NCBI GenBank assembly: GCA_012719415.1
Contig: JAAYAK010000137.1
Span: forward strand, 835-64,834
Origin: Syntrophorhabdus sp.
GTDB lineage: Bacteria > Desulfobacterota > Syntrophorhabdia > Syntrophorhabdales > Syntrophorhabdaceae
DNA length: 64,000 nucleotides
Direction of reading: 5' to 3'
This document shows, in pieces, positions 42,889 to 58,135 of the stretch (the first letter of the stretch is position 1; every line of letters begins with the position of its first letter). Made by a program: the position numbers and the translations under genes. The notes beneath the pieces are model-generated. The model made no database searches, was not told where the DNA came from, and saw nothing but the letters and a program-made list of their open reading frames with translations.

Positions 42889-43785
42889 TCAATGAACGGC
42901 CTGGTCCGGCCTGTTGACGAGCATGTCGATAAAAGAGGTTGCGATCCTCGACAGGTCATTCCTGTTGAGGAAGACGATGTAGGCATCCATCGAAAGCTTA
43001 ACATCACTTACTGTCAATTTTTTCAGCAACCCCTGCGCCAGTTCTTTCTGCACGACGGGTTCGACGATGAACGAGGCGCCTTCTCCCCTCCCGATCAATT
43101 CCTTGGTGAATTCGAGGTTGCTTGCTTCGTAGAGCACGGTTGGCACAAGCCCCTTATTCCTGAACGCTTCCATGACGATCCTTCTTGTCCCGGACCCCTC
43201 CTCCCTCATGATGAGGGGGACCCTGGAGACTTCCTTGAGAGTGACGGTTTCCATTTTGGCCAACGGATGCTCAGGTGAGATGACGAGAAGGATGTTCTCT
43301 TTCCGGAAGGTGATGCTGTTGAGGAACCTGGGATCCCGGTCGCTGGCCACGATGGCAAGTTCGTTCTTCATATGAAGAAGGCTTTGCATCATTTCCCTCG
43401 AACTTCCTTCTCCCAGGTGGATGCTTATGCCCGGATGAAGGGCGTGGAACATGGAGATGTAGTTGGGCATGAGGAAGCGCGCGTATGTTTTTGTCGTCCC
43501 GATGTGCAAGGTGCCTGTCTGCACCTTTCTTATCCTGTCGAGGACTTGTTCGGCCTCATTCTCGAGCTGAAAGATCTTTTGAGCGTAATCGAAAAGCATT
43601 TGACCCGCTTCAGTCAGGTAGGTCCTCCCCCCAACCCTGGTGAAGAGCCTGAGGCGTGTTATAGCCTCCAACTGTTTGATCTGGGAGGAGACAGCGGGCT
43701 GACTGACGCAAAGATGTTCCGCGGCCCTGGTGAAGCTGTGCTGTCGGGCCGACTCATAGAATATTCTCAACTGGTTGAGGTTCAT
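42889..43785 (-). CDS. LysR-family transcriptional regulator
   Basis: The wHTH begins MNLNQLRIFYESARQHSFTRAAEHLCVSQPAVSSQIKQLE and is followed by a LysR substrate-binding domain. It is divergent from the aromatic operon. The ATG at 43785 is preferred over the track start at 43836. Confidence 0.88.
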   Translation of the reverse strand: MNLNQLRIFYESARQHSFTRAAEHLCVSQPAVSSQIKQLEAITRLRLFTRVGGRTYLTEAGQMLFDYAQKIFQLENEAEQVLDRIRKVQTGTLHIGTTKTYARFLMPNYISMFHALHPGISIHLGEGSSREMMQSLLHMKNELAIVASDRDPRFLNSITFRKENILLVISPEHPLAKMETVTLKEVSRVPLIMREEGSGTRRIVMEAFRNKGLVPTVLYEASNLEFTKELIGRGEGASFIVEPVVQKELAQGLLKKLTVSDVKLSMDAYIVFLNRNDLSRIATSFIDMLVNRPDQAVH

Positions 43786-43999
43786 GGCCACCACCCTGCT
43801 TCTCCTGCCGCAAGGCAGAAGAAAAGCATTTGTCAACGCTCAGTCGATCGATGAATGTCCGCCCGTCCGGGATTGCTCCAAGGGCCGATGGTATGGGAAA
43901 TGTTGTTCGCAACGTCAGTTCCTGATGTCTGCTCGTTGCGGGCGGCAACCTCTGTTTAAGGCTATAGGAACAAGTATACATAAGTTTTTCTTATGTGCA

Positions 44000-44045
44000 A
44001 CATAATTTATATGTATTTGACATCATTTCATTATCTTTCGATGAT
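44000..44045 (+). promoter_or_regulatory. Candidate LysR-type dyad plus sigma70 promoter of the aromatic operon
   Basis: An interrupted dyad ACATA-N5-TATGT lies at 44000..44014 in an AT-rich stretch. It is followed directly by TTGACA (44017..44022), a 17-nt spacer and GATGAT (44040..44045). An AGGAGG Shine-Dalgarno sits at 44061 and the ATG at 44074. Confidence 0.4.
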
Positions 44046-44073
44046 TTAAGAAATACGATCAGGAGGGGCACCG

Positions 44074-45480
44074 ATGAAGGACATGAGAGATTTTATCCAT
44101 GATGCCGAAGAGGTGGGTCAGCTCAGGAGAGTAAAGGCAGAGGTGGACTGGAACCTCGAGCTTTCCCACATTGCCAAGCTGAACGAAGAAAAGAGCGGAC
44201 CGGCGCTTCTCTTCGAGAATGTCAAGGGCTACACTTCACCCGTCATAACCAGCGTTTGCACGACGACGCAGAGACTTGCCCTGATCATGGGCGCGCCTTT
44301 GGAATCGAGCCTGGTGGATCTCATGCGCTACTGGGTGGAGAAGGGGAAGACGCTGGTGCCCCCGAAGTTCGTGGACAGGTCGCAGGCGCCCTGCAAAGAG
44401 AATATTATGAAAGGGGACGACATCGATCTTTTCAAGTTCCCGGCACCCCACTACTACCCCAGGGACGGGGGAAGGTTTATGGGTACCGCCCACTTCTTTA
44501 TCACCAAGGATCCGGATTCGGGTTGGGTCAACCTGGGGACGTACCGGGCCCAGCTTCTTGCCAGGGACAAGATAGGTACCCAGTTCATCAAGGGGAAACA
44601 TTCCGATATCATGTTGAAGAAATATGCCGCCCTGAAGAAACCCATGCCCGTTGCGTCTATCGTGGGTTGTGACCCATTGCTCTTTCTCACCGGAGCGGCG
44701 CGCCTTTCCGCCTTCTTGAGCGAATATGACTTCGCCGGGGCCGTGCGGGGCGGACCCATAGAGGTGGTGCGGGGCGAAACGGTCGATCTCCCTATTCCCG
44801 CGACGGCGGAGATCGTCATCGAAGGCTTCGTGGATCCCGAGACCTTCATGGAGGAGGGTCCCTTCGGAGAGTACACCGGCTACTACTCCGGTGTGGGGAC
44901 GGACAAACGGAACTTTGAGCAGGTGACATGTGTGACATACCGGAACAACCCCGTTTTCTGGGGGACCACCGTGGGGCGTGCCGTCACGGACACTCACATG
45001 ACGATGGCCCTTACCTACGGGGCTACCCTCTGGCAGCAATTGACGGATATGAAGATCCCCGGCATAAAGGCTGTATACTGCCCTCCGGAAGGCTCGGGAC
45101 GGTTTCTCGCCATCATATCGATGAAGCAGATGTACCCCGGGCACGCCGACCAGGTCGGGACGGCCGCGATCTCCACAGAGATGGGGGCCTACGGGTTGAA
45201 GACGGTGATTGTCGTTGATGAGGACATAGATCCCTGGGACATCCCCAGAGTGTTGTACGCGCTGAGCTTCCGGTTCCAGCCGAACCGCTGCCAGATCATC
45301 AAACGGGGTCGCTCAACACCTCTTGATCCTTCGCTTCCCATAGAATCCAGGGACATAACGGGGAGGATCATTATGGACGCGACCATTCCCTATGAATGGA
45401 AGGAGAAGCCGATACCCGTGGAACTCGACCCGGAGACGGTGAAGAAGGTCGAAGCAAGGTGGTCGGAGCTCGGACTTTAA
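44074..45480 (+). CDS. UbiD-family prenylated-FMN-dependent (de)carboxylase
   Basis: 468 aa. UbiD-type N-terminus (MRDFI...G.L.RV...VDW.LE......GPALLFENVKGY) and the hallmark GPFGEYTGYY motif. Confidence 0.9.
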   Translation: MKDMRDFIHDAEEVGQLRRVKAEVDWNLELSHIAKLNEEKSGPALLFENVKGYTSPVITSVCTTTQRLALIMGAPLESSLVDLMRYWVEKGKTLVPPKFVDRSQAPCKENIMKGDDIDLFKFPAPHYYPRDGGRFMGTAHFFITKDPDSGWVNLGTYRAQLLARDKIGTQFIKGKHSDIMLKKYAALKKPMPVASIVGCDPLLFLTGAARLSAFLSEYDFAGAVRGGPIEVVRGETVDLPIPATAEIVIEGFVDPETFMEEGPFGEYTGYYSGVGTDKRNFEQVTCVTYRNNPVFWGTTVGRAVTDTHMTMALTYGATLWQQLTDMKIPGIKAVYCPPEGSGRFLAIISMKQMYPGHADQVGTAAISTEMGAYGLKTVIVVDEDIDPWDIPRVLYALSFRFQPNRCQIIKRGRSTPLDPSLPIESRDITGRIIMDATIPYEWKEKPIPVELDPETVKKVEARWSELGL

Positions 45481-45489
45481 AATGTTCTC

Positions 45490-47154
45490 GTGCCAAGGGG
45501 GGTTATCGTGAGACCGATCAGATACACCGATGAGATGATCAACGAATTCAGAAACGACGGGTACTGGACGGAGGAGGTCTTCTCTGATTTCTGGAGGCGA
45601 AACGCCATGGAGCTGGGAGACCGCGAGGCCCTTGTCGACTCCAGATACCGGGTGACATGGAAAGAAGCGTGGAAGATGCTCAACAACCTTGCCAGTGCCT
45701 GGGTCGACATGGGAATACCAAAGGATTCCCGGATAATAATCCAGGCTCCGAACAGCGTCTATGGCTTCATTGCCAGGATAGCGGCCGACAGGGCCGGGAT
45801 CATATCGCTTACCGTCTATCCTTACCTGAGAGAGAAAGAGCTCATCTACATGGTGGAGAGGACGGAGGCGGTAGCCGTGGCCATTCCGCACATCTACCGT
45901 AAGTTCAATTACCTCGAGATGTACAGGGAATTGCAGAAGACCTCACCCTACCTGAAGTATTTCTTCCTTTTTGACGAGGAGGTACCCGAGGGCGCGCCCG
46001 TTGGATCCTACTCACTCTTCAAACTGGCGAACGAAGACGTTGACGGAGCAAAATACACGGCTCTCGACGAGAGAAGGTTCAACGCGTGCCACGATGTGGG
46101 TCTGTTGACGAGCACGACGGGAACAACGGGTCTCCCTAAACTGGTGGAATGGCCCATCGCCTCACGGGTCTGCACGTCAAAAGCGAGGGTCGATATCTGG
46201 CGTCTGACCCGGGACGACATCACGCTGGCCATCGCCCCGCACGCGGGCGGCGCCGCGGGGACCCTCACGTACTTCGCGGCTCCCCTGGTCGGGGCAAAGA
46301 CGGTCATGATGGAAGAGTTCGAACCGGAAGGGGCCCTGAAGCTCATTGAGAAGGAGAAGGCCACGGCCATAGGGGTTGTACCCACCCACCTCGTCCGCAT
46401 GCTCGAGGTGGACGAGACCGGATATGATCTGAGTTCGCTAAGGTTTATTCGAAGCGCCGGCGGTTATCTGCCTCCCCAGGTTGCCGAAGAAGCGGAGAGA
46501 AGGTTCGGGGCGACGATAACGAGCGACCTCGGGACACAGGACGTTGGTTCCGTGTCCGGGTGCACCATCGATGATCCCGGCGAGATACGCCGGAGGACGG
46601 TGGGAAGGATGCTCCCCGGGAACCGAATGAGACTTCTTGACGACGAGGGCAAAGAGGTGTCCGACGGAGAGGCTGGTCAGCTCTGGTTTCGCGGGCCCCA
46701 CGCGCCGGCGGGGTACTATCGCGACCCCGAATCCACGGCACCGGTCTTTGACAGGGACGGGTGGACGACGACGGGTGATATCGTCAAGTATTCCGACGGC
46801 TGCCTGTGGATAATGGGCAGGTCAAAGGACATGATCATACGGGGTGGGCAGAACATATATCCTGCCGAGATAGAAGGCATCCTCAACGAGCACCCCAGGG
46901 TGGCGAACGTGGCCATCGTCGGGTATCCGGACAGGGAAATGGGAGAGCGTGCCTGCGCCTTTGTGGTGCTCAAGGCCGGCGAGACGTTCTCCAAGGAGGA
47001 GATGGTCGCCTTCCTCAAGGAAAAGAAGCTGGCGGCCTTCAAGCTGCCCGAGAGGCTTGAGATAGTCGATGCCCTTCCCACCGTCGGTGATTCCGGCAAG
47101 GTGGATAAAAAGGTGCTTAAGACTGAGATGGAAAAAAGGGTTTCCGGGGGATGA
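45490..47154 (+). CDS. AMP-forming acyl/aryl-CoA ligase (adenylate-forming superfamily)
   Basis: About 550 aa. Core motifs LLTSTTGTTGLPKLV, TGDIV, GRSKDMIIRGGQNIYPAEIE and a C-terminal GKVDKK Lys. The N-terminus resembles aryl-acid (EntE/benzoate-type) ligases. A GTG at 45508, preceded by AAGGGGGG, is an alternative start. Confidence 0.88.
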   Translation: MPRGVIVRPIRYTDEMINEFRNDGYWTEEVFSDFWRRNAMELGDREALVDSRYRVTWKEAWKMLNNLASAWVDMGIPKDSRIIIQAPNSVYGFIARIAADRAGIISLTVYPYLREKELIYMVERTEAVAVAIPHIYRKFNYLEMYRELQKTSPYLKYFFLFDEEVPEGAPVGSYSLFKLANEDVDGAKYTALDERRFNACHDVGLLTSTTGTTGLPKLVEWPIASRVCTSKARVDIWRLTRDDITLAIAPHAGGAAGTLTYFAAPLVGAKTVMMEEFEPEGALKLIEKEKATAIGVVPTHLVRMLEVDETGYDLSSLRFIRSAGGYLPPQVAEEAERRFGATITSDLGTQDVGSVSGCTIDDPGEIRRRTVGRMLPGNRMRLLDDEGKEVSDGEAGQLWFRGPHAPAGYYRDPESTAPVFDRDGWTTTGDIVKYSDGCLWIMGRSKDMIIRGGQNIYPAEIEGILNEHPRVANVAIVGYPDREMGERACAFVVLKAGETFSKEEMVAFLKEKKLAAFKLPERLEIVDALPTVGDSGKVDKKVLKTEMEKRVSGG

Positions 47155-48404
47155 CGATGAAAACGATCCTTATTATCTCCACCTTGAATACCAAGGGAGC
47201 GGAGACGTTCCACCTGCGCGACATGATCAGCCGTTTTGGTGGCTCGCCTGTCGTGCTCGATATCTCCATGCGGCCGGCGGACGGAGAGGCTTCGGCCGAT
47301 ATTTCACCCGACGAGGTGGCGCGGGCTGCGGGAAGCACCATGATGGAGATCCTGGCGTCCGGGGAGAGGGCCAGGAACACCGCCATAATGACAAGGGGGG
47401 CTGCCGCGAAAGCCCTCCAGATGCTCCGGGAGAACAGACTTGACGGAGTCATAGGCATAGGCGGTTCCACCGGGTCCCTGATGGCGACGGACGTGATGCG
47501 TTCGCTGCCTTTCGGTCTTCCCAAGTTGATGGTGTCGTCCACCGCAGCCCTGCCGGGCATGTCGACGAAATACATCGGTACCGGAGATATCGCGCTCATG
47601 CATTCGGTGGTGGAAATAGCAGGACTTGGAGACGCGCTCAGAAACGTTATCGAGAGGGCTGCACGGGGGATATGCGCGATGGCCGAGGCAGCGCCCATCG
47701 TATCGAGAAAGAAGAGCGGTGACAGCAAGGCGGTGGCGATCACCATGCTGGGGCCGTGTGACAGGTGCGCCACGGCTGTAAGGCTTGCCCTCGAGGAGAA
47801 AGGGCACCAGGTGACAGGCTTTTCCGCGGCCGGTATCAGCGATCGGGCGATGGAACTCATGGTGTCACAGGGGCTCTTCGACGCGGTCATCGACCTTGCT
47901 CCGGGTGGAGTGATGGAGCATCTTGTGGGCGGAATGAGGGACGCCGGGCCGAGCAGGATGGAAGCGGCAGGCAAGGCGGGTATACCGCAGGTTATTTCCA
48001 CCTGCGGCGTCAACCACATAACACCACCGAAATCCAAGTACACCGAAGATCACAAGACGCGAAGGAAATACGACATCGACAGGTTCAGAACCTGGCTGAG
48101 GGCTTCACCCGATGAGCTTCGGTCAGCCGCCCGGGCTTTCGCGGAGAAACTGAACGGCGCGGGTGGTCCGGTCAAGGTCATCATACCCATGAGAGGTTGG
48201 TCATCCGTTGATGTGCCGGGTAATGCCACGTATGACCCGGAAGAGGACAGATGTTTCTTGAATGAGCTCAGAAGGCACGCGGCGGCAAGGATCGAAATAG
48301 CGGAGATAGATGCCAACATGGAAGACCCGGTGTTCGCTCGATCCGTGATAAGCGCGGGGATAGAGATCCTGGGCCGGTCGGGCAGGGGGCTTAAATGCGC
48401 GTGA
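47151..48404 (+). CDS. UPF0261 (Tm-1 N-terminal-like, putative ATP-binding) protein, copy 1
   Basis: 417 aa. ILIISTLNTKG start, DGVIGIGGSTGS and RSLPFGLPKLMVSS motifs. ATGA overlap with the ligase stop. Confidence 0.75.
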   Translation: MTMKTILIISTLNTKGAETFHLRDMISRFGGSPVVLDISMRPADGEASADISPDEVARAAGSTMMEILASGERARNTAIMTRGAAAKALQMLRENRLDGVIGIGGSTGSLMATDVMRSLPFGLPKLMVSSTAALPGMSTKYIGTGDIALMHSVVEIAGLGDALRNVIERAARGICAMAEAAPIVSRKKSGDSKAVAITMLGPCDRCATAVRLALEEKGHQVTGFSAAGISDRAMELMVSQGLFDAVIDLAPGGVMEHLVGGMRDAGPSRMEAAGKAGIPQVISTCGVNHITPPKSKYTEDHKTRRKYDIDRFRTWLRASPDELRSAARAFAEKLNGAGGPVKVIIPMRGWSSVDVPGNATYDPEEDRCFLNELRRHAAARIEIAEIDANMEDPVFARSVISAGIEILGRSGRGLKCA

Positions 48405-48482: not shown

Positions 48483-49388
48483 ATGACAAACCTGCTGCCG
48501 AAATTTGACTATTACGAACCCAGGGACATTGCCGGGGCGTGCAGATTGCTCTCCCAGTTCAAGGGATCCGCGAAGATAATAGCCGGAGGCACCGACATCC
48601 TGGTGAACATGAAGAAGGGCCTGATCGCGCCTGAACGGCTGGTGGGCATCGGGAAGATCCCCGGCATCTCGGAGGTGCAGGCTGTGAATGGAGGGATCTC
48701 CATTGGGGCCCACCTCATTGTGGAGAAGCTCGTGGAGTTCGATCTCGTGAGAAGAAGGTTTGGTGTTTTGTCCAGGGCAGCCTCGGTACTCGGCTCTCCC
48801 CTCGTCAGAAATCGGGCGACGATAGGAGGCAACATCGTAAACGCCCGGCCCGCCGCCGACCTTCCGCCTCCCCTCATGGCCATGGATGCCAGGGTGATCC
48901 TGACGGGCATGCGGCGGGAGAGGGAGGTGCCGCTGGACAAGTTCTTCAGAGGACCCGGTCAGACCGTGATAAAACCGTCGGAGGTGTTGACCCGGGTCGT
49001 GATGGACAACCCGCCCCCCTTTACCGGTGGAGATTACATGAAGCTCATGCACCGCAGGTCCCTGGAGATCGCGATAGTGGCCGTGGCCTCGAGGATAACC
49101 CTTGACGGCCCGGACGGGACGATCACGGACGCGAGGATCATTCTGAGTTCTGTGGCGCCGAAAGCCGTGCATGCCCCTCGCGCCGAGAAGAGCCTGCTGG
49201 GGGAGAGGCCCACGGAAAACCTTTTCGCTGAGGCGGCACGGATCGCTTCGACAGAATGCGCGCCGATAGACGATATCCGTGGAGGGGCCGGGTACCGCCG
49301 CAGCATGGTCGAGGTGCTGACGAGGCGAACGTTGCGGGGCGCTCTTGATGAGGCCCTGCGTCAGACCGGAGAAAGGGGTGGACGATGA
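48483..49388 (+). CDS. Xanthine-dehydrogenase-family FAD-binding (medium, CoxM/HcrB-like) subunit
   Basis: About 301 aa from the ATG at 48483. Motifs IIAGGTDILV and ATIGGNI, plus a C-terminal CO-dehydrogenase flavoprotein domain (DIRGGAGYRR). Confidence 0.88.
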   Translation: MTNLLPKFDYYEPRDIAGACRLLSQFKGSAKIIAGGTDILVNMKKGLIAPERLVGIGKIPGISEVQAVNGGISIGAHLIVEKLVEFDLVRRRFGVLSRAASVLGSPLVRNRATIGGNIVNARPAADLPPPLMAMDARVILTGMRREREVPLDKFFRGPGQTVIKPSEVLTRVVMDNPPPFTGGDYMKLMHRRSLEIAIVAVASRITLDGPDGTITDARIILSSVAPKAVHAPRAEKSLLGERPTENLFAEAARIASTECAPIDDIRGGAGYRRSMVEVLTRRTLRGALDEALRQTGERGGR

Positions 49389-52241: not shown

Positions 52242-52889
52242 ATGTCGATCCTGTTTACCCAGCACTGGGACCTGATACCCGGTGCCGAAAGCGAATACAT
52301 GCAGTTCATTGCGGAGAGGTACATACCGGAGACCGAGGAAAAGGGTTTCCATCCCGTGGGAGGCTATTACGTGGAGGTCGGTTTTGGGCCGAGGATCGTT
52401 GCCGTGTATGCGGCCGAAAACCTCGGTCGACTCACGGAGGTTGTAGACACGTCAAAATTCAGGGAGCTGACAGTTGCGCTAAAATCGCTTGTGTACAATT
52501 ATGTCTCCGGTGTCTACGCCCCCACGGGGAACGTGAAACATGAGGATTATTCCATTCAAAAAGGAGTATGGAAGTTCAACCAGTACTATGACCTGAAGCC
52601 GGGGATGAAGAAGGAGTACGCAGATTTTATCATCAACGAGCACGTCCCGACGATGAAGAAGCTCGATTACCTGGAAGTGACGGGCGGGTGGAACGTGCTC
52701 TTTGGCGGTTTTTCGGAGATCATAGCGGAATTCACTTTCAAGGATCCCATCGATATCGCGAGGCTTCTCAACAATGAGGATTTCAGGAAGGTCACCCTGA
52801 AACTGCGCAGTGAATTCGTGATCAACTACAAGAGCAGGATCCTTCGTTGCACGGAACGGTTTGATGAAGCCAGGTGGTTCAGGCTTTAA
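52242..52889 (+). CDS. Orphan protein built from two homologous ~100-aa halves (no family recognised)
   Basis: 215 aa from the ATG at 52242, with an AAGGAGG Shine-Dalgarno at 52227. Half 1 is FTQHWDLIPGAESEYMQFIAERYIPE..VGGYYVEVGFG..FRELTVALKSLVYNYVS. Half 2 is FNQYYDLKPGMKKEYADFIINEHVPT..TGGWNVLFGG..FRKVTLKLRSEFVINYKS. Confidence 0.6.
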   Translation: MSILFTQHWDLIPGAESEYMQFIAERYIPETEEKGFHPVGGYYVEVGFGPRIVAVYAAENLGRLTEVVDTSKFRELTVALKSLVYNYVSGVYAPTGNVKHEDYSIQKGVWKFNQYYDLKPGMKKEYADFIINEHVPTMKKLDYLEVTGGWNVLFGGFSEIIAEFTFKDPIDIARLLNNEDFRKVTLKLRSEFVINYKSRILRCTERFDEARWFRL

Positions 52890-52914: not shown

Positions 52915-54756
52915 ATGGCCGCAACGACATTTATGGATCCCCATGATGTGCCTGTCATCACGGGTACTCAGGGATGGGAAAGGATGTATCCTTACCAGTA
53001 CCAGTTCTCGAAGGACGATCCGGAAAGAGAGTCCTTTGAGAGCAGCCAGATATGGTATTATGACGGTCTTCATTATCCCGAGCCCCATTACCCGTTCGAC
53101 CTTATATGGGACGAGGCGTGGTCCCTCGCGCTGTCGCAGTACAACACGAGACATTTCATAATCCCGCCGGCCATGGGTATCGATCACCGCATCGTCAACG
53201 GCTATGTGTACATAACCCCCGTAGGAATAGCCGATCAGGAGGTGGTGGCGAAAAGGGTGCCCCATTTCCTTGAAAGGGCTGGATACTATTACCAGAACTG
53301 GGACAGACTCTACGAAAACTGGAAGAAGAAAGTTACGGCGCTGATCGAGGAGCTGGATGCTCTCGACTTCAGCGAATTGCCCGAAATGGAAGACATCAGC
53401 GTCGTCACGGAGGGGGTCGGCAGAGGCCGCGGCTTCGACCTGCTCAAAAAGTACGACGATCTGATCAATATGGGTCTTCTCAACTGGCAATACCATTTTG
53501 AGTTCCTCAATCTTGGTTACGCGGCATATGTGACGTTCATCAACACGACGAACCAGATCTTCCCGGGCATCCCCATGTCCACGCTGACCAAAATGGTTTC
53601 CGGCATCGATGTTGTCATGTACAAGCCTGATTCGGAACTGATACGGCTGGCAAGACTTGCCATTGACACGGGGCTCGAAGAGATGTTCATGAAGCCCCTC
53701 AAGGCGGAAGGGTTGATGGGGGAACTGGAGAAGTCCGCGGCGGGCAGGGATTGGCTGGCCGAGATGGAGAAGGCCCGTTATCCATGGTTCTACATATCCA
53801 CCGGAACGGGGTGGTATCATCACCACATCTCCTGGAACGATAATCTTGACATTCCCTTCGACGCCATCAGGATGCATATCACGAGTCTCAAGGAAGGAAA
53901 GGAGGTCGGGCGCCCGACGGAAAAGCTCGTGAAGGAGCGCGACAGGATAGTCGAGGAATACAGGAAACTGATAAAAACTGACGACGACCGGGAGGCCTTC
54001 GAGCAGTCGCTGGCGGTCGCGAGAACCGTTTTCCCCTATGTCGAGGACCATTTGTTCTACATCGAACACTGGTTCCACAGCATCTTCTGGGGGAAGGTGC
54101 GCCAGATCGGGAGGATCCTGCAAAAGGAAGGTTTTATCGGGGACGTCGAGGATATCTGGTACCTGAAAAGGGACGAGATAAAACAGGCCCTGTGGGACTA
54201 CTGCACGGCATGGGCTACCGGTGTCAAGCCAAGGGGACCTTCGTATTGGCCGAAGGAGGTTTCATGGAGGAAGGAGGTCTATAAGAAGTTCAGAGAGTGG
54301 GTTCCTCCACCGGCACTCGGGGTACCGCCCGACGTCGTGACGGAGCCTTTCACCATAGTGCTTTGGGGTGTGACCACGGACGTGTTGGGCGAATGGCTCA
54401 AGGGCGGGAGCGACGGAGAAGAGGAAGTGAGGGAGTTCAAGGGTTCGCCCGGTTCTTCCGGTCTGGTGGAGGGAAGGGCGCGGGTTCTCAGGAACGTTTC
54501 GGAACTCTCCGATCTCAAGGAGGGGGAGATCCTTGTTGCCACCACCACATCGCCAAGCTGGGCGCCGGCCTTCGTGAAGATAGCTGGCGCCGTGACCGAT
54601 GTCGGAGGGCCCATGTGCCACGCGGCGATAGTCTGCAGGGAATACGGTCTTCCCACGGTGGTGGGGACAGGAAAGGCGACCCACCTCATCAAGACGGGAG
54701 ACCTCATCAGGATAGACGGCGACAGCGGTGTTGTGACCATTCTTGAGAAAGCTTGA
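52915..54756 (+). CDS. PEP-utilising-enzyme phosphohistidine (mobile domain) protein, phenylphosphate synthase alpha (PpsA)-like
   Basis: 613 aa from the ATG at 52915, with a GGGGGAGGAG Shine-Dalgarno. The C-terminal swivel domain has GGPMCHAAIVCREYGLPTVVG (catalytic His). The large N-terminal region has no ATP-grasp motifs. Confidence 0.8.
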   Translation: MAATTFMDPHDVPVITGTQGWERMYPYQYQFSKDDPERESFESSQIWYYDGLHYPEPHYPFDLIWDEAWSLALSQYNTRHFIIPPAMGIDHRIVNGYVYITPVGIADQEVVAKRVPHFLERAGYYYQNWDRLYENWKKKVTALIEELDALDFSELPEMEDISVVTEGVGRGRGFDLLKKYDDLINMGLLNWQYHFEFLNLGYAAYVTFINTTNQIFPGIPMSTLTKMVSGIDVVMYKPDSELIRLARLAIDTGLEEMFMKPLKAEGLMGELEKSAAGRDWLAEMEKARYPWFYISTGTGWYHHHISWNDNLDIPFDAIRMHITSLKEGKEVGRPTEKLVKERDRIVEEYRKLIKTDDDREAFEQSLAVARTVFPYVEDHLFYIEHWFHSIFWGKVRQIGRILQKEGFIGDVEDIWYLKRDEIKQALWDYCTAWATGVKPRGPSYWPKEVSWRKEVYKKFREWVPPPALGVPPDVVTEPFTIVLWGVTTDVLGEWLKGGSDGEEEVREFKGSPGSSGLVEGRARVLRNVSELSDLKEGEILVATTTSPSWAPAFVKIAGAVTDVGGPMCHAAIVCREYGLPTVVGTGKATHLIKTGDLIRIDGDSGVVTILEKA

Positions 54757-54853: not shown

Positions 54854-55918
54854 ATGTCAGGTAAAGAAACGAGATACACGCTGTGGTATGAGGAAACGCG
54901 GGGTGACGATTTCAACTTCGTGGGAAAAAAGAACGCCAACCTGGGCGAAATGATCAGCGCCGGCATCAGGGTGAGTCCCGGTTTCTGCATCACTATAAAC
55001 GCCAACGACAGGTTCATCACCGACACGGGGATACGGGAGAAGATCGAGACCTATGTGAAAGACATTGGCCCCGTGGCCCTGGAGACGACGAGAAGGGCGA
55101 GTGAATACGCGATCGGTCTCATTGAATCATGCGCGATACCGGCGGAGATCGAGGACGAGATCCTGACGGGCTACCGGAGGCTTTCTCAAATGTCGGGTGG
55201 CACCGATGTGCCCGTCGCGGTGAGGAGCAGCGGGGCGATATCCATGCCGGGTCAGATGGAAACCTACCTGAACATTCGGGGCGAGAAGGATCTCATAGAA
55301 TACGTGAAGAAGTGTTGGAGCAGTGCCTATAACGTGGAAGCCATCATGTACCGGGCCAACAGGGGGATGGGTTTTCTCTTCAACATCGGGGTCGGTATCC
55401 CCAGGATGGTCAATTCCCGGGTGTCCGGTATCATATTCACCATAAACCCCCTCAACGGCGATCCTTCGAAGATCTCCATCGACGCGAGCTACGGGTTGGG
55501 CGAGGCTGTTGTGAGCGGTCTTGTCACTCCCGATACGTTCCTTGTGGACAAGATCACCCTGGATCCGGTGAAGACCACGGTGGGGAGCAAAGAGGTCAGG
55601 TGCGTCTACCGCCAGAATGGCAGCGACATTGTTCAGACAGACGTGCCCGACGACATGCGCCGGAGGCTCTGCGTTTCTCCCGAGGAAGTGCGTGAGCTCT
55701 GCCGTCTTGGCAAGTTGATAGAGGAGTACTATGGAAAGGCCTACGACATCGAGTTTGGGATCGATGCCGATCTGCCGTTTCCGGACAACATCATCATACT
55801 GCAGGTCAGACCCGAATCCGTCTGGAGCAAGAAGGAAGTGGCCGCCAAAACGGAGCGGAAGAAGGATCCCATGGAAAGGATCCTCGGTCAGCTTCTGACG
55901 GGCGTCAGGCTGAAGTGA
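54854..55918 (+). CDS. PPDK_N-type ATP-grasp protein, phenylphosphate synthase beta (PpsB)-like
   Basis: 354 aa from the ATG at 54854, with an AAGGAGG Shine-Dalgarno. FVGKKNANLGEM and VAVRSSG motifs match the PEP-synthase/PPDK nucleotide-binding domain. There is no His domain. Confidence 0.8.
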   Translation: MSGKETRYTLWYEETRGDDFNFVGKKNANLGEMISAGIRVSPGFCITINANDRFITDTGIREKIETYVKDIGPVALETTRRASEYAIGLIESCAIPAEIEDEILTGYRRLSQMSGGTDVPVAVRSSGAISMPGQMETYLNIRGEKDLIEYVKKCWSSAYNVEAIMYRANRGMGFLFNIGVGIPRMVNSRVSGIIFTINPLNGDPSKISIDASYGLGEAVVSGLVTPDTFLVDKITLDPVKTTVGSKEVRCVYRQNGSDIVQTDVPDDMRRRLCVSPEEVRELCRLGKLIEEYYGKAYDIEFGIDADLPFPDNIIILQVRPESVWSKKEVAAKTERKKDPMERILGQLLTGVRLK

Positions 55919-55935
55919 GAGGCAAAAGCCGGGGA

Positions 55936-57195
55936 ATGGTTAAAAGGACCCTGCTTATAGTAGCCACGTTGGACACGAAGGGCAAAGAGGCCGCCTACGT
56001 GAAGGAGTGCGTCGAGTCTCTGGGTGTGGATGTCCTCGTAATGAACGTGGGAACGATGTCTGAACCCTCAATGGGGGCCGACTTTTCCCTTGAGAACGTC
56101 TTGAAGGCGGCGGGCCGGGGTCCGTTCCCGGGCACATCGGGTGTGCTTCGCCGCTCCGAAGCGGTTGAAGCGGTGCAAGAGGGTGGGATTGCCATCGCGC
56201 GGAGGCTGTTGAGCGAAGGACGTGTGGACGGCATACTCGGTCTTGGTGGAGGCACCGGTACCTCAATTGCCGCCGCTGTCATGCGGTCTTTGCCCTTCGG
56301 AATACCGAAGGTGATGGTCTCCACGGTGGCCTCACGGGATGTCAGGCAGTACGTCGGAACAAAGGACATCGTCATGTTCCACAGCGTGGCGGACCTTTTG
56401 GGATGGAACCATTTTGTCGGTCGGGTCCTTCAACAGGCGGCCCATGCCGTTTATGCCATGATGGAGGTCGGTGTCACAGGAAAAGAGGGGAGGCCGATGG
56501 TGGCCGTCACAGCCTACGGGATAAACTCGCGCTGCGCCATGAATGTGGAACCCCTGCTTGAGGAGAGGGGATACGAGATGATCGGTTTCCACGCAAACGG
56601 CGTCGGTGGAATGGCAATGGAGGAGATGACGGGTGAAGGGCTCATAGAGGGTGTGCTCGATCTCACGGTCCACGAGGTGGCGGACGAGATGTTCGGGGGT
56701 TATTGCAGGGGGATCGGGCAAAGAAGGTTCAGGGCTGCGGGCGAAGTCGGGATACCCCTCCTTGTGGCCCCCGGAGGTCTTGACAACGCGGTCTTCAGCC
56801 CGTTCTATCCGATGCCGGACAGGCTGAAAGGCAGAAGGCGGCGCGATCATGACGACAGGTTCTGTGTTCGCATGGAGCGTGAAGAGATGATCGTCTTCGC
56901 GAGGATCATCGCTGAAAGGCTGAATGATTCCCGAGGACAGGTCTTTGTGCTCATACCATCGCGGGGCTTCTCAGAGGCCGACAGACAGGGCGAGGAGCTT
57001 TACGACCCCGAGACGGACCGGGTTTTCACCGAGGAGTTGAAAGGGTTGCTCAGGGAAGACATTGCCCTTGAAGAGATGGATGCGCACATAAGCGACCCCG
57101 AGTTTGCGAGCCGCGCGGTGTATGTCATCGACACGATGATCCGGGCGAGACGTCAGGCCGGGACAGAGAAGCCTGAAGCGGGACGTCAAGCATGA
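55936..57195 (+). CDS. UPF0261 (Tm-1 N-terminal-like) protein, copy 2
   Basis: About 419 aa. LLIVATLDTKG, DGILGLGGGTGT and RSLPFGIPKVMVST are colinear with copy 1. The stop overlaps the next gene (ATGA). Confidence 0.75.
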   Translation: MVKRTLLIVATLDTKGKEAAYVKECVESLGVDVLVMNVGTMSEPSMGADFSLENVLKAAGRGPFPGTSGVLRRSEAVEAVQEGGIAIARRLLSEGRVDGILGLGGGTGTSIAAAVMRSLPFGIPKVMVSTVASRDVRQYVGTKDIVMFHSVADLLGWNHFVGRVLQQAAHAVYAMMEVGVTGKEGRPMVAVTAYGINSRCAMNVEPLLEERGYEMIGFHANGVGGMAMEEMTGEGLIEGVLDLTVHEVADEMFGGYCRGIGQRRFRAAGEVGIPLLVAPGGLDNAVFSPFYPMPDRLKGRRRRDHDDRFCVRMEREEMIVFARIIAERLNDSRGQVFVLIPSRGFSEADRQGEELYDPETDRVFTEELKGLLREDIALEEMDAHISDPEFASRAVYVIDTMIRARRQAGTEKPEAGRQA

Positions 57196-57578
57196 GAGAT
57201 GCGTTATTGACGGATCTGGTAGAGGAGAAGGGGGCATTCAGGATATCGGCCGTCCTGCACGTCATGGGCGACGACCTGGTAGTGGTCCTTCAGGGAGGGA
57301 AAGGACATATCGGGGCCGTGGGCATCGCGCAGCCGAGGCCGGGCCTTTCTGATGCTGGCAGGACGAGTGCCACCTCTTCGGTCTACACCTTCCTGGGACA
57401 CAAGGAGGATGACATAGCAAAGACAATGGCGCAGGTGCTGGCAAGCGGTCTTCAACGCAGGGTCGTCGTCGTGGCCGGTCTGCACTGGGACGGGATAAGT
57501 CCCGAGGGGATCGATGAAGTCGTTGCCATGTGCCGAACGCTGACGACCAGGATCATGGAGGGGGCGGGAAGGAAATGA
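57192..57578 (+). CDS. Small LpdD-like protein (accessory subunit of UbiD-type decarboxylases), tentative
   Basis: 128 aa. The pattern L.V.GDDL.VVL.GG.GHIGAV.....HKEDDIAK.MA....SGL...VVVVAGLHWD.I...I matches my recollection of Lactiplantibacillus plantarum LpdD. ATGA overlaps on both sides. Confidence 0.45.
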   Translation: MRDALLTDLVEEKGAFRISAVLHVMGDDLVVVLQGGKGHIGAVGIAQPRPGLSDAGRTSATSSVYTFLGHKEDDIAKTMAQVLASGLQRRVVVVAGLHWDGISPEGIDEVVAMCRTLTTRIMEGAGRK

Positions 57579-58135
57579 AGAAGATCATTGTGGCAATCAC
57601 CGGGGCGACGGGCGTCATCTATGGGATAAGGCTCCTTGAAGTCCTGAGGGATTTCGATGTGGAAAGCCACCTGATCCTGTCCACACAGGCGAAGGCGAAC
57701 ATAGAGTGCGAGACGGACCGAAGCGCACAGGACGTGGAACAGCTTGCCTCAAAGGTGCACGATGTGAACAACCTCGCGGCACCAGTGTCGAGCGGTTCCT
57801 TCAGGACAGACGGGATGATCATTGCCCCCTGCACAATAAAGACCCTGTCCGCCATAGCCAATTCATATGACGACAATCTTGTTGTCAGGGCCGCGGACGT
57901 GGTTCTCAAGGAGCGCAGGAGGCTTATTGTAGCGGTGCGGGAGACCCCGCTCCACAAGGGGCATCTTGAATTGATGGCCAGGGTTGCCGATCTCGGAGGG
58001 ATCGTCCTGCCTCCCGTGCCCGCCTTCTATTTTCATCCCCGAACCATCGAAGACATCGTAGACCACGCCGTGGGGAAAATGCTGGACCTCATGGACATTG
58101 ACCATTCGCTGTTCAAGAGATGGCAAGGGGAATAG
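57575..58135 (+). CDS. ubiX: Flavin prenyltransferase UbiX
   Basis: 186 aa from the ATG at 57575. KIIVAITGATGVIYGIRLLEVL, MIIAPCTIKTLSAIANS and ERRRLIV..RETPL motifs. Confidence 0.92.
   Translation: MKKIIVAITGATGVIYGIRLLEVLRDFDVESHLILSTQAKANIECETDRSAQDVEQLASKVHDVNNLAAPVSSGSFRTDGMIIAPCTIKTLSAIANSYDDNLVVRAADVVLKERRRLIVAVRETPLHKGHLELMARVADLGGIVLPPVPAFYFHPRTIEDIVDHAVGKMLDLMDIDHSLFKRWQGE

What the first reader, a model, noticed from the sequence alone, without database searches (positions are those of the whole stretch)
42889..58135. LysR-flanked 12-gene operon mixing four anaerobic-aromatic enzyme types in a combination that fits no described pathway
What the sequence shows:
- Twelve plus-strand genes run from 44074 to 58135.
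- Gaps range from 9 to 97 nt, or the genes overlap by ATGA (47151, 49385, 57192, 57575).
- The operon is divergent from a LysR gene and sits behind a dyad plus TTGACA promoter.
- Gene order is: UbiD-family (de)carboxylase, aryl-CoA ligase, UPF0261, FAD/2Fe-2S/Mo subunits of a xanthine-dehydrogenase-family enzyme, internally duplicated orphan, PpsA-like His-domain protein, PpsB-like ATP-grasp protein, UPF0261, LpdD-like protein, UbiX.

Established knowledge:
- Anaerobic phenol degradation (Thauera aromatica, Geobacter metallireducens) uses phenylphosphate synthase PpsABC and the UbiD-family phenylphosphate carboxylase PpcABCD. It then uses 4-hydroxybenzoate-CoA ligase and the XDH-family 4-hydroxybenzoyl-CoA reductase.
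- Anaerobic phthalate/isophthalate degradation (Thauera/Aromatoleum, Desulfosarcina, Syntrophorhabdus) uses CoA activation followed by a UbiD-family (iso)phthaloyl-CoA decarboxylase plus UbiX.

Inference:
- This locus has one representative of every enzyme type of the phenol route, and also the adjacent UbiD-ligase pair typical of the phthalate-type route.
- Several canonical parts are missing: there is only one UbiD paralog, no PpcC/PpcD-like genes, and no CBS-domain PpsC.
- The FAD subunit also lacks the Cys-rich insert described in the finding for 48483-52225.
- Three proteins of unknown role are added.
- The substrate therefore cannot be assigned, and this may be an undescribed variant pathway for a phenolic or carboxylated aromatic compound.
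Basis: partly seen in the sequence, partly recalled or inferred. Interest (0 to 1): 0.75.

Follow-up and report, generated by a model that had tools for sequence, protein, structure and literature searches.

The report
Anaerobic phenol-to-benzoyl-CoA operon, Syntrophorhabdus type
This is a real 12-gene operon, but it is not an unknown pathway: it matches, gene for gene, the phenol-induced cluster of the sulfate reducer Desulfatiglans anilini, and its main value is that it points to which unassigned proteins to test for how strict anaerobes carboxylate phenol.

Summary
In detail: 12 tightly packed + strand genes (44074-58135) lie divergent from a LysR gene, with the stated domain content.

The claim that the combination "fits no described pathway" is not supported.
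- The locus is collinear with the phenol-induced phe cluster of Desulfatiglans anilini. Identities are UbiD 79%, ligase 72%, UPF0261 59%, Mo subunit 76%, FeS 67%, FAD 50%, UbiX 58%.
- The D. anilini counterparts of the UbiD, ligase and UPF0261 proteins rise 12- to 50-fold on phenol.
- The full 12-gene set recurs in four other Syntrophorhabdus or Syntrophorhabdaceae genomes.
- The core PpsAB + single PpcB-type UbiD + DhbE-type ligase + UPF0261 recurs in about 25 Desulfobacterota-type genomes.

Most likely function: phenol is converted to phenylphosphate, then 4-hydroxybenzoate, then 4-hydroxybenzoyl-CoA, then benzoyl-CoA.

New inferences from this work:
- The orphan is a tandem ferredoxin-like protein that always sits upstream of PpsA. 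It is mutually exclusive with the CBS protein PpsC.
- The UPF0261 genes belong to the MarK family of phenol-OH kinases. One copy keeps the phenol-binding residues; the ligase-linked copy has lost them.
- UPF0261 next to the UbiD gene is anticorrelated with PpcC/PpcD.

I class this as a new member of a known kind, of moderate interest.

The parts
42889..43785 (-). LysR-family transcriptional regulator, divergent from the operon
   Evidence: Pfam HTH_1 + LysR_substrate. 41% identical to the LysR gene divergent from ppcB in D. anilini. A LysR gene is divergent in most related loci.
43978..44045 (+). Regulatory region: dyad ACATAAG-N5-CTTATGT (43978-43996, contains T-N11-A) and sigma-70-like TTGACA-17-GATGAT (44017-44045)
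   Evidence: Read from the sequence and the promoter scan. Function is inferred, not shown.
44074..45480 (+). Single PpcB-type UbiD (prFMN-dependent) carboxylase
   Evidence: TIGR02724 PpcB 491 bits, above the cutoff of 469. 79% identical to the phenol-induced D. anilini H567DRAFT_02059. Falls in the same NJ clade.
45508..47154 (+). Aryl-acid adenylating enzyme / CoA ligase (DhbE-type). Proposed 4-hydroxybenzoate-CoA ligase.
   Evidence: Pfam AMP-binding. Best solved relatives are salicylate- and 2,3-DHB-AMP ligases. 72% identical to the phenol-induced D. anilini 02058.
47151..48404 (+). UPF0261 paralogue a (MarK family) with a remodelled phenol pocket (N-T-K; MarK H219 replaced by Ser, H304 by Ile)
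   Evidence: Pfam UPF0261 N- and C-terminal domains. PDB 9MPY MarK, E = 1.6e-53. 59% identical to the phenol-induced D. anilini 02057. Motif table.
48483..49388 (+). FAD subunit of an XDH-family molybdoenzyme, without the [4Fe-4S] insert
   Evidence: Pfam FAD_binding_5 + CO_deh_flav_C. Full-length match to CutM, but matches HcrB only over residues 3-119. Only 2 Cys.
49385..49855 (+). 2x[2Fe-2S] subunit
   Evidence: Pfam Fer2 + Fer2_2. 67% identical to the D. anilini counterpart.
49874..52225 (+). Molybdopterin subunit, HcrA-like. Proposed 4-hydroxybenzoyl-CoA reductase alpha subunit.
   Evidence: TIGR03194 902 bits, below the cutoff of 995. Best PDB hit is 1RM6_A HcrA at 1e-172, against 1e-87 for the next family. 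76% identical to D. anilini 02053, which is also 783 aa.
52242..52889 (+). Orphan: tandem ferredoxin-like (dimeric alpha/beta-barrel) protein. Proposed accessory subunit of phenylphosphate synthase that takes the place of PpsC.
   Evidence: No Pfam or NCBIfam hit above threshold. AF2 pLDDT 86. Foldseek hits 3F44, 3MCS and coproheme decarboxylase, TM 0.57-0.66. Always directly upstream of PpsA and never found with PpsC.
52915..54756 (+). PpsA: phenylphosphate synthase His-domain subunit
   Evidence: NF006152 913 bits, above the cutoff of 723. Aromatoleum PpsA meets the same equivalog model. 58% identical to Aromatoleum PpsA. The GGPMCHAAIV phospho-His motif is present.
54854..55918 (+). PpsB: ATP-grasp / PPDK_N subunit
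   Evidence: Pfam PPDK_N, 2e-88. Adjacent to PpsA in nearly all related loci that extend past PpsA.
55915..57195 (+). UPF0261 paralogue b (MarK family) that keeps the residues matching MarK D14, T15, K16, G195, H219 and H304. Proposed ATP-dependent phenolic kinase. The start codon is uncertain (GTG 55915 or ATG 55936).
   Evidence: MarK biochemistry and structure are in PMC12624787.
57192..57578 (+). LpdD-like prFMNH2-binding chaperone
   Evidence: Pfam PAC_bac, 3.6e-33. PDB LpdD 8PZH, E = 2e-4 over the full length. LpdD function is described in PMC10865409.
57575..58135 (+). UbiX flavin prenyltransferase (makes prFMNH2 for the UbiD enzyme)
   Evidence: NF004685 264 bits, above the cutoff of 188.

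Best explanation
The locus is a LysR-controlled catabolic operon of a Syntrophorhabdus-like bacterium. It converts phenol, or a very close phenolic analogue, to benzoyl-CoA without oxygen. It is the counterpart of the phenol-induced phe cluster of Desulfatiglans anilini.

**Proposed steps**
1. PpsA and PpsB phosphorylate phenol to phenylphosphate, using ATP and releasing AMP + Pi. The tandem ferredoxin-like orphan acts as the accessory subunit in place of the CBS protein PpsC.
2. The single PpcB-type UbiD enzyme para-carboxylates phenylphosphate to 4-hydroxybenzoate. UbiX makes its prFMN cofactor and the LpdD-like chaperone delivers it.
3. The DhbE-type ligase forms 4-hydroxybenzoyl-CoA.
4. 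The HcrA-like Mo/FeS/FAD enzyme removes the 4-hydroxyl group to give benzoyl-CoA. Its electron-input route differs from that of the Thauera enzyme, because the [4Fe-4S] insert is absent.

**The two UPF0261 proteins** are MarK-family phosphotransferases.
- Copy b keeps the ATP- and phenol-binding residues, so it is probably an ADP-forming phenolic kinase.
- Copy a is always linked to the UbiD-ligase pair and has a remodelled pocket. It probably works with the single UbiD enzyme in place of the missing PpcA, PpcC and PpcD subunits.

**Shown:** gene content, collinearity and sequence relatedness to phenol-induced proteins.
**Inferred:** every catalytic step in this organism, and the roles of the orphan and of both UPF0261 proteins.
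For: **Match to the D. anilini phe locus**
- L087 is collinear with the window. Identities are UbiD 79%, ligase 72%, UPF0261 59%, FAD 50%, FeS 67%, Mo 76%, UbiX 58%, LysR 41%.
- Proteome areas in D. anilini (4-aminobenzoate / aniline / benzoate / phenol): PpcB 02059 = 1.5e9 / 8.8e8 / 8.8e8 / 1.8e10; ligase 02058 = 8.5e8 / 8.0e8 / 6.6e8 / 1.26e10; UPF0261 02057 = 0 / 5e7 / 5e7 / 2.5e9 (PMC7500099 Table S1).
- Phenylphosphate synthase activity was measured in phenol-grown D. anilini extracts (PMC6114531).

**Family placement**
- The window PpsA meets the same NCBIfam equivalog as Aromatoleum PpsA.
- The UbiD protein exceeds the PpcB equivalog cutoff, with a score like that of D. anilini PpcB (491 against 507).
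- The Mo subunit is far closer to HcrA than to any other solved family.
- The ligase is nearest to hydroxybenzoate-adenylating enzymes.

**Conservation**
- The full 12-gene set is conserved in L007, L008, L009 and L011. The core is conserved in about 25 further genomes.

**Accessory proteins**
- Orphan against PpsC: 13 loci have only the orphan, 38 only PpsC, 0 both and 6 neither (Fisher p = 1e-8).
- UPF0261 against PpcC/PpcD: 40 of 44 single-UbiD loci have UPF0261, against 3 of 13 multi-subunit loci (p = 5e-6).
- MarK is a demonstrated ATP-to-ADP kinase of phenolic OH groups (PMC12624787).
- Residue conservation in the two UPF0261 copies is tabulated.
- LpdD function is described in PMC10865409.
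Against: - There are no expression or enzyme data for this organism.
- Phenylphosphate carboxylase activity was never detected in D. anilini extracts, so step 2 is unproven even in the reference system.
- In D. anilini a second UbiD protein (03563), encoded elsewhere, is also phenol-induced. Two PpcB-like subunits were needed in vitro for the aniline route. 'Single UbiD' may therefore only describe the cluster, not the enzyme; only 64 kb of this genome is visible.
- The Mo and FeS subunits score below the HcrA and HcrC equivalog cutoffs, and the FAD subunit lacks the HcrB cluster.
- The co-occurrence statistics are not corrected for phylogeny. The orphan-linked PpsA proteins form one clade.
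- Other Syntrophorhabdaceae carry a different pps-ppc cluster with three UbiD genes (L010, L014, L018). This type could therefore serve a different phenolic substrate.
Confidence: 0.75

Rival explanations
1. The enzyme logic is the same (phosphorylation, para-carboxylation, CoA ligation, reductive removal of the substituent), but the substrate is a different phenolic or aromatic-amine compound, such as a cresol, catechol, hydroquinone or aniline.
For: - Other Syntrophorhabdaceae carry a canonical-like three-UbiD pps-ppc cluster (L010, L014, L018), so this type could be a paralogous system.
- D. anilini uses a parallel cluster of the same gene types for aniline.
- The UbiD and Mo subunits sit at or below the curated equivalog cutoffs.
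- The ligase resembles ortho-hydroxybenzoate-adenylating enzymes.
Against: - The closest experimentally studied relatives (79%, 72%, 59% and 76% identity) are induced by phenol, not by aniline, 4-aminobenzoate or benzoate.
- The window PpsA is 58% identical to Aromatoleum PpsA and meets its equivalog model. The aniline-specific Pas-alpha is only about 27% identical to D. anilini Pps-alpha.
- No second PpsA locus from the four genomes with the 12-gene set appeared among the best 80 hits.
Confidence: 0.15
2. One reading: an undescribed hybrid pathway in which the adjacent UbiD-ligase pair works as in the phthalate or isophthalate routes (CoA activation, then UbiD decarboxylation), joined to phenol-type modules.
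For: - The UbiD and ligase genes are adjacent, 27 nt apart.
- Syntrophorhabdus is known to degrade isophthalate through a ligase and a UbiD decarboxylase.
Against: - Isophthalate-CoA ligase is of the PaaK type, whereas this ligase is of the DhbE type.
- The UbiD protein exceeds the PpcB equivalog cutoff.
- The related UbiD-ligase-UPF0261 triad of D. anilini is phenol-induced.
- Across about 25 genomes the triad sits next to PpsAB.
Confidence: 0.04
3. This is not one functional unit but two or three independently transcribed modules that happen to be adjacent: UbiD-ligase-UPF0261, the Mo enzyme, and Pps-UPF0261-LpdD-UbiX.
For: - There are gaps of 78 nt before the FAD gene and 97 nt before PpsB.
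- The modules occur in different orders in other genomes, for example L084, L036 and L087.
- The Pps module belongs to a different subfamily from that of D. anilini (45% identity).
Against: - There are five 4-nt overlaps and all other gaps are short.
- The scan found no terminator-like site on the + strand between 45000 and 58600.
- GC3 is uniform at 0.69-0.75.
- The identical order is kept in five species at 82-100% PpsA identity.
- All modules serve one pathway.
Confidence: 0.05

Closest known systems
phe (pps-ppc) phenol-degradation cluster of Desulfatiglans anilini DSM 4660, H567DRAFT_02049-02061 (Xie & Müller 2018, PMC6114531; Xie et al. 2020, PMC7500099)
   Same: - A divergent LysR gene, followed by PpcB-type UbiD, DhbE-type ligase, UPF0261, the FAD, FeS and Mo subunits, PpsA and PpsB in the same order.
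- Identities of 50-79% for the carboxylase, ligase and reductase modules.
- No PpcA, PpcC, PpcD or PpsC in the cluster.
- The FAD subunit is short (293 aa against 301 aa here, compared with 324 aa for HcrB).
   Different: - The window has the tandem ferredoxin-like orphan upstream of PpsA.
- Its PpsA is of the Aromatoleum-like subfamily (58% identity, against 45% to D. anilini).
- It has a second UPF0261 inside the operon that keeps the MarK pocket, and an LpdD-like chaperone.
- UbiX lies at the end instead of after the first UPF0261.
- It has no response-regulator gene and no PaaK-type ligase gene.
Canonical phenylphosphate synthase PpsABC, phenylphosphate carboxylase PpcABCD and 4-hydroxybenzoyl-CoA reductase HcrABC of Thauera and Aromatoleum
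   Same: - PpsA (same NCBIfam equivalog) and PpsB.
- A PpcB homologue (48-50% identity) and UbiX.
- An HcrA-like Mo subunit.
- The same overall chemistry is expected.
   Different: - No PpsC, PpcA, PpcC or PpcD.
- No [4Fe-4S] insert in the FAD subunit.
- A DhbE-type ligase.
- Two UPF0261 proteins, an LpdD-like protein and the orphan are added.
Pps-Ppc operon of the Syntrophorhabdus aromaticivorans type (loci L010, L014, L018; discussed in PMC5946492)
   Same: The orphan-PpsA-PpsB-UPF0261(b)-LpdD module, at 57-83% identity.
   Different: Those loci carry PpcB, PpcD, PpcA, PpcC and a third UbiD gene. They have no adjacent DhbE-type ligase, no UPF0261(a) and no Mo enzyme.
MarK (Saro_1862) of Novosphingobium aromaticivorans, UPF0261 family, PDB 9MPY (PMC12624787)
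   Same: - Both window UPF0261 proteins align over the full length, at 31-33% identity.
- Copy b keeps the residues matching MarK D14, T15, K16, G195, H219 and H304.
   Different: - MarK acts aerobically on acetovanillone-type ketones, ahead of a biotin carboxylase.
- Copy a has Ser and Ile at the positions of the phenol-binding His residues.
- Neither copy keeps H348, which binds the ketone group.
ani (aniline) cluster of D. anilini, H567DRAFT_03866-03876
   Same: The same set of gene types: Pas-alpha/beta dikinase, PpcB-like UbiD, acyl-CoA synthetase, UPF0261 and an HCR-like Mo enzyme.
   Different: The ani Ppc-beta is only about 52% identical to the phe PpcB. Pas-alpha is only about 27% identical to Pps-alpha. 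The window proteins group with the phe and canonical Pps types.
Isophthalate-CoA ligase and UbiD-type isophthalyl-CoA decarboxylase cluster of S. aromaticivorans (PMC9516798)
   Same: A ligase lies next to a UbiD-family gene, with UbiX, in the same bacterial lineage.
   Different: The ligase there is of the PaaK type. There is no PpsAB, Mo enzyme or UPF0261. The reaction runs as a decarboxylation of a CoA ester.

Membership tests
D. anilini-type anaerobic phenol cluster (single PpcB + DhbE-type ligase + UPF0261 + HCR-like + PpsAB) | Collinear gene order with a divergent LysR gene | tested here: met
   L087 against the window.
D. anilini-type anaerobic phenol cluster (single PpcB + DhbE-type ligase + UPF0261 + HCR-like + PpsAB) | Close sequence relatedness of the UbiD, ligase, UPF0261 and Mo subunit | tested here: met
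   79%, 72%, 59% and 76% identity over the full length. Same UbiD clade in the NJ tree.
D. anilini-type anaerobic phenol cluster (single PpcB + DhbE-type ligase + UPF0261 + HCR-like + PpsAB) | Induction by phenol | not testable with these tools
   Known only for D. anilini. No expression data exist for this organism.
Phenylphosphate synthase PpsABC | PpsA with a PEP-utilizer mobile His domain, meeting the PpsA equivalog model | tested here: met
   NF006152 913 bits, above the cutoff of 723. Aromatoleum PpsA scores 1313 on the same model. His motif present.
Phenylphosphate synthase PpsABC | PpsB ATP-binding PPDK_N subunit adjacent to PpsA | tested here: met
   Pfam PPDK_N, 2e-88.
Phenylphosphate synthase PpsABC | PpsC (tandem CBS) stimulatory subunit | tested here: not met
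   No tblastn hit to Aromatoleum PpsC in the window. The orphan occupies the accessory position.
Phenylphosphate carboxylase PpcABCD | PpcB (beta) subunit | tested here: met
   TIGR02724 491 bits, above the cutoff of 469, but far below the canonical score of 1094.
Phenylphosphate carboxylase PpcABCD | PpcA (alpha), PpcC (gamma) and PpcD (delta phosphatase) subunits | tested here: not met
   None is present in the 64-kb window. The rest of the genome was not visible.
4-hydroxybenzoyl-CoA reductase HcrABC | Alpha subunit meeting the HcrA equivalog | tested here: inconclusive
   TIGR03194 902 bits, below the cutoff of 995. 1RM6_A is nevertheless by far the best solved relative (1e-172).
4-hydroxybenzoyl-CoA reductase HcrABC | Beta (FAD) subunit with the extra [4Fe-4S]-binding insert | tested here: not met
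   301 aa with 2 Cys. Aligns with HcrB only over residues 3-119.
4-hydroxybenzoyl-CoA reductase HcrABC | Gamma 2x[2Fe-2S] subunit meeting the equivalog | tested here: not met
   TIGR03193 185 bits, below the cutoff of 258. The Fer2 and Fer2_2 domains are present.
MarK / UPF0261 aromatic kinases | UPF0261 N- and C-terminal domains | tested here: met
   Both copies. PDB 9MPY at E = 1.6e-53 and 2.2e-55.
MarK / UPF0261 aromatic kinases | ATP-site D14-T15-K16 and phenol-site G195, H219 and H304 | tested here: met
   Met for copy b (55915-57195): DTK, G, H, H.
MarK / UPF0261 aromatic kinases | The same residues in copy a (47151-48404) | tested here: not met
   NTK, G, Ser, Ile. Ser at the H219 position is shared by nearly all ligase-adjacent relatives, the exceptions being L036 and L045, which keep His.
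MarK / UPF0261 aromatic kinases | ATP-dependent phosphorylation of a phenolic OH | not testable with these tools
   Needs an enzyme assay.
Phthaloyl- / isophthalyl-CoA decarboxylase route | PaaK-type CoA ligase or a CoA transferase partnered with the UbiD enzyme | tested here: not met
   The ligase is of the DhbE/salicylate-AMP-ligase type. IPCL is of the PaaK type.
LpdD prFMNH2 chaperone | Sequence homology to LpdD, adjacent to UbiX | tested here: met
   PAC_bac, 3.6e-33. LpdD 8PZH, E = 2e-4. Overlaps the ubiX start by 4 nt.

The most novel reading that the evidence does not exclude
In strict anaerobes the 'single-PpcB' phenylphosphate carboxylase may be a different machine from the Thauera PpcABCD enzyme. 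A MarK-derived UPF0261 protein (copy a) would handle the phosphoryl group of phenylphosphate. It might pass it to ADP, or it might couple its release to carboxylation and to immediate adenylation by the co-conserved DhbE-type ligase. This would lower the ATP cost of phenol activation. It would also explain why phenylphosphate carboxylase assays that contained no nucleotide or CoA failed in D. anilini. In parallel, the pocket-intact copy b would be an ADP-forming phenol kinase that can bypass the AMP-forming PpsAB, and the tandem ferredoxin-like orphan would be a new third subunit of phenylphosphate synthase.
Probability: 0.22. Interest if true: 0.75.

Novelty: new member of a known kind. Interest (0 to 1): 0.42.

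Why it matters
Phenol is a major pollutant and a central intermediate in the anaerobic breakdown of aromatic compounds. Two questions have stayed open since the Geobacter (2009) and Desulfatiglans (2018) studies: how energy-limited sulfate reducers, iron reducers and syntrophs carboxylate phenylphosphate with only a PpcB homologue, and how they afford up to four ATP equivalents for the upper pathway.

This locus does not reveal a new pathway. The comparison across about 80 loci does sharpen the question into testable candidates:
- a MarK-family UPF0261 protein and a DhbE-type ligase that co-occur with the single UbiD gene, wherever PpcC and PpcD are absent;
- a second UPF0261 protein that looks like an intact phenolic kinase;
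- an orphan that takes the place of PpsC.

It also corrects the annotation of the 'CO dehydrogenase' subunits, the '2,3-dihydroxybenzoate-AMP ligase' and the 'hypothetical' genes in many metagenome-assembled genomes (MAGs).

Tried and rejected
- **Phthalate or isophthalate reading.** Rejected on ligase type and on the phenol induction of the D. anilini counterparts.
- **Aniline (Pas) reading.** Rejected because the window PpsA is canonical-like and the UbiD protein groups with the phe PpcB, not the ani one.
- **UbiD-UPF0261 fusion proteins as Rosetta-stone evidence.** The long ORFs in L056, L061, L063 and L077 are out-of-frame upstream extensions produced by my ORF rule, not fusions.
- **Compositional mosaic.** GC3 is uniform at 0.69-0.75, so there is no sign of recent patchwork.
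- **RNA elements.** No Rfam family and no tRNA in the window.
- **Inverted-repeat tool.** It found nothing in the intergenic region at a minimum arm of 8. The 7-bp dyad was read by eye.
- **Literature dead ends.** No paper links 'UPF0261' with 'UbiD'. A search for 'Tm-1-like ATP-binding' gave nothing. The Geobacter phenol paper PMC2698347 is not held. The ORM2 benzene paper was checked and is not relevant.
- **PDB.** There is no solved PpcB. The nearest solved structures are PhdA (7PDA) and VdcC, which say nothing about substrate.
- **CO-dehydrogenase or carbonylation idea** from the 2018 paper. Not favoured, because the Mo subunit is HcrA-like.

Full report
**Observation.**
The ORF table and independent gene calls on identical metagenome contigs show twelve + strand genes from 44074 to 58135. 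Gaps are 16-97 nt, and there are 4-nt overlaps at 47151, 49385, 55915, 57192 and 57575. A LysR gene (42889-43785, - strand) is divergent.

The 288-nt intergenic region contains the dyad ACATAAG-N5-CTTATGT (43978-43996, with a T-N11-A core) and a TTGACA-17-GATGAT match. Promoter-like matches are not enriched over shuffles, so the promoter is only plausible.

Pfam and NCBIfam give the following, in order:
- UbiD (TIGR02724 PpcB, 491 bits against a cutoff of 469);
- an AMP-ligase;
- UPF0261;
- XDH-family (xanthine-dehydrogenase-family) FAD, 2x[2Fe-2S] and Mo subunits (HcrA model 902 bits against a cutoff of 995);
- a 215-aa orphan;
- PpsA-like (NF006152, 913 bits against a cutoff of 723);
- PpsB-like (PPDK_N);
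- UPF0261;
- PAC_bac/LpdD-like;
- UbiX.

The FAD subunit has two cysteines and matches HcrB only up to residue 119. The orphan's halves are 30% identical. tblastn with Aromatoleum PpsC, PpcC and PpcD finds nothing in the window.

**Organism and conservation.**
The nearest PpsA and UbiD relatives are from Syntrophorhabdus and Syntrophorhabdaceae MAGs. I scanned one genome per species with a PpsA alignment and mapped the 13 window proteins onto the 80 loci returned. The loci fall into four groups.
- The complete 12-gene arrangement occurs in four further species (L007, L008, L009, L011; PpsA 82-92% identical).
- A widespread type, found mainly in MAGs labelled Deltaproteobacteria, Thermodesulfobacteriota, Desulfomonilaceae, Syntrophaceae or Syntrophobacteraceae, has a divergent LysR gene, PpsA, PpsB, UbiD (76-83% identical to the window protein in most of them), ligase (63-73%), UPF0261 (50-59%) and, variably, LpdD, UbiX and a second UPF0261. 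One such locus (L084) also carries the Mo enzyme (68%).
- Other Syntrophorhabdaceae (L010, L014, L018) have the orphan-PpsA-PpsB-UPF0261-LpdD module, but with a PpcB/PpcD/PpcA/PpcC set.
- The Aromatoleum loci show the canonical PpsABC-PpcBDAC-UbiX order.

**The decisive comparison.**
The UbiD search returned a protein named phenylphosphate carboxylase subunit beta of Desulfatiglans anilini (79% identity). Its contig (L087, GCA_000422285.1) reads as follows: UPF0261, LysR (divergent), UbiD, AMP-ligase, UPF0261, UbiX, FAD, FeS, Mo (783 aa, as here), PpsA, PpsB.

Identities to the window proteins are:

| Protein | Identity |
|---|---|
| UbiD | 79% |
| ligase | 72% |
| UPF0261 (copy a) | 59% |
| UbiX | 58% |
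| FAD | 50% |
| FeS | 67% |
| Mo | 76% |
| PpsA | 45% |
| LysR | 41% |

This is the 14.4-kb phe cluster H567DRAFT_02049-02059, described in 2018 as the phenol-degradation cluster (PMC6114531). It was quantified again in 2020 (PMC7500099). In replicate 1 of Table S1 the proteome areas for 4-aminobenzoate / aniline / benzoate / phenol are:
- PpcB 02059: 1.5e9 / 8.8e8 / 8.8e8 / 1.8e10
- '2,3-dihydroxybenzoate-AMP ligase' 02058: 8.5e8 / 8.0e8 / 6.6e8 / 1.26e10
- UPF0261 02057: 0 / 5e7 / 5e7 / 2.5e9
- UbiX 02056: detected on phenol only

Its authors left the ligase 'function unknown', never discussed the UPF0261 genes, and read the Mo-enzyme subunits partly as CO dehydrogenase.

**Assignment of steps.**
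- *PpsA and PpsB.* The window PpsA meets the same NCBIfam equivalog as Aromatoleum PpsA (913 and 1313 bits), whereas D. anilini Pps-alpha does not (577 bits). It keeps the phospho-His motif.
- *UbiD.* It scores like D. anilini PpcB on the PpcB model (491 against 507 bits, canonical 1094). In an NJ tree it sits in the D. anilini clade, as sister to the canonical PpcB group and to a third single-UbiD group.
- *Ligase.* Its nearest solved relatives adenylate hydroxybenzoates (salicylate-AMP ligase and DhbE). The window operon has no PaaK-type ligase, so this is the only candidate for 4-hydroxybenzoate-CoA ligase. In D. anilini it is much more abundant than the PaaK-type ligase that the authors nominated (coverage 85% against 9%).
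- *Mo subunit.* It is far closer to HcrA (1RM6_A, 1e-172) than to any other solved family (the next is 1e-87).
- *UbiX and the LpdD-like protein* (8PZH, E = 2e-4; PAC_bac 3.6e-33). They fit prFMN synthesis and delivery.
- *Isophthalate-CoA ligase* of Syntrophorhabdus is of the PaaK type, so the phthalate-type reading of the UbiD-ligase pair is not supported.

**The unassigned proteins.**

*(a) UPF0261.* The family's first reported activity came in 2025. MarK of Novosphingobium is an ATP-to-ADP kinase of phenolic hydroxyl groups. Its crystal structure (9MPY) shows the phenolic oxygen bonded to the Gly195 backbone N and His219, and His304 stacking on the ring. D14, T15 and K16 form the nucleotide site (PMC12624787). 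That paper does not mention anaerobic phenol clusters.

I aligned 74 UPF0261 ORFs from the loci with MarK:
- Copy b (55915-57195) and its Syntrophorhabdaceae relatives keep DTK, G, H and H.
- Copy a (47151-48404) and nearly all ligase-adjacent relatives, including the phenol-induced D. anilini 02057, have Ser at the H219 position and Leu or Ile at the H304 position. Only L036 and L045 keep His at the H219 position.
- A third clade (D-T-R ... H-Q-L) follows the single UbiD gene in Proteobacteria and Desulfuromonadaceae MAGs.

In loci with enough flanking sequence, UPF0261 is present in 40 of 44 clusters lacking PpcC/PpcD, and in 3 of 13 clusters that have them (Fisher p = 5e-6). Those three carry only the copy-b type.

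*(b) The orphan.* The family has 436 clusters at 90% identity, all named 'hypothetical' and none with a Pfam domain. The AF2 model (pLDDT 86) shows two ferredoxin-like beta-alpha-beta-beta-alpha(alpha)-beta repeats. The best structural matches are two-domain alpha+beta-barrel proteins: 3F44, 3MCS, coproheme decarboxylase and chalcone isomerase, at TM 0.57-0.66 and 10-15% identity.

The orphan lies directly upstream of PpsA in nearly every locus whose PpsA is at least 64% identical to the window's and that has enough upstream sequence; L021 is the exception. These loci include MAGs labelled Campylobacterota, Hippea and Dermatophilaceae. It never co-occurs with the CBS protein PpsC: 13 loci have only the orphan, 38 only PpsC, 0 both and 6 neither (p = 1e-8).

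Both statistics ignore phylogeny and should be read as patterns, not proofs.

**Mechanism and what remains open.**
The best-supported reading is the phenylphosphate route to benzoyl-CoA. Two points remain unproven even in the reference organism.
- Phenylphosphate carboxylase activity could not be detected in D. anilini extracts, with either CO2 or CO. The assay contained phenylphosphate, bicarbonate and metals, but no nucleotide or CoA.
- The authors noted that the ATP cost (up to four equivalents) is hard to reconcile with a sulfate reducer's energy budget, and that the lack of PpcC implies a different carboxylase mechanism.

The anticorrelation of UPF0261 with PpcC/PpcD, the remodelled pocket of copy a and its tight linkage to the ligase (4-nt overlap) make it the prime candidate for the missing partner. 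I put about 0.2-0.3 on this. The alternatives are that it is a regulator or a kinase for another intermediate.

Copy b could be an ADP-forming phenol kinase. Less likely, given its neighbours LpdD and UbiX, it could supply the prenyl phosphate that UbiX needs. The prenyl-phosphate requirement of UbiX is from my own knowledge and was not tested here.

Caveats:
- D. anilini also induces a second UbiD protein that is encoded elsewhere.
- Two PpcB-like subunits were needed for the aniline route in vitro.
- Only 64 kb of this genome can be seen.

**Context.**
The neighbouring genes are housekeeping: an AddAB-like helicase/nuclease pair, SerRS, SecDF, LigA and a TonB-dependent receptor. No Rfam family or tRNA is present. 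GC3 is uniform across the operon.

**Verdict.**
This is a real and conserved operon. It is a new member (the Syntrophorhabdus version) of an already described kind of anaerobic phenol cluster. Those gaps line up with specific, testable replacement candidates.

Noticed in passing
window 30853-33150 (+): A 765-aa ORF with no Pfam hit at E <= 1e-5. It lies between the SecDF genes and the seryl-tRNA synthetase gene.
   Followed up: no
L002 7799-9025 (JGI 3300027914 contig): This contig carries the same operon at about 100% identity, but its UPF0261 copy a is split into ORFs of 137 aa and 219 aa. This could be a frameshift, a pseudogene or an assembly error.
   Followed up: no
L025 5666-13900: A delta-proteobacterial MAG carries two PpsA-PpsB pairs in tandem (73/70% and 44/39% identity to the window pair), behind a single copy of the orphan gene. 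This suggests two dikinases with different substrates.
   Followed up: no
L082 5048-7500: Two tandem UbiD genes of the window/D. anilini clade (81% and 71% identity) lie ahead of the ligase. This could be relevant to whether the 'single' UbiD enzyme really works as a homo-oligomer.
   Followed up: no
L034, L037, L061, L063, L066, L068, L072, L074, L077, L083: A third UPF0261 clade (motif D-T-R ... H-Q-L) lies immediately after the single PpcB-type UbiD gene, with no ligase, in MAGs labelled Alpha-, Beta- or Gammaproteobacteria and Desulfuromonadaceae. These loci also carry PpsC.
   Followed up: partly
window 36509-42687 (-): An AddAB-like pair (a 941-aa PD-(D/E)XK nuclease and a 1118-aa UvrD-type helicase-nuclease) lies directly upstream of the LysR gene. 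The same neighbours appear on the identical metagenome contigs, so the operon sits in a housekeeping context rather than in a catabolic island.
   Followed up: partly
L087 6952-8166 (D. anilini H567DRAFT_02061): A second UPF0261 gene lies beyond the LysR gene of the D. anilini phe cluster. It has the motif D-S-K ... H-Y and is 40% identical to window copy b. It is not phenol-induced in the published proteome (areas 2.7e8 / 8.8e7 / 1.3e8 / 1.2e8).
   Followed up: partly
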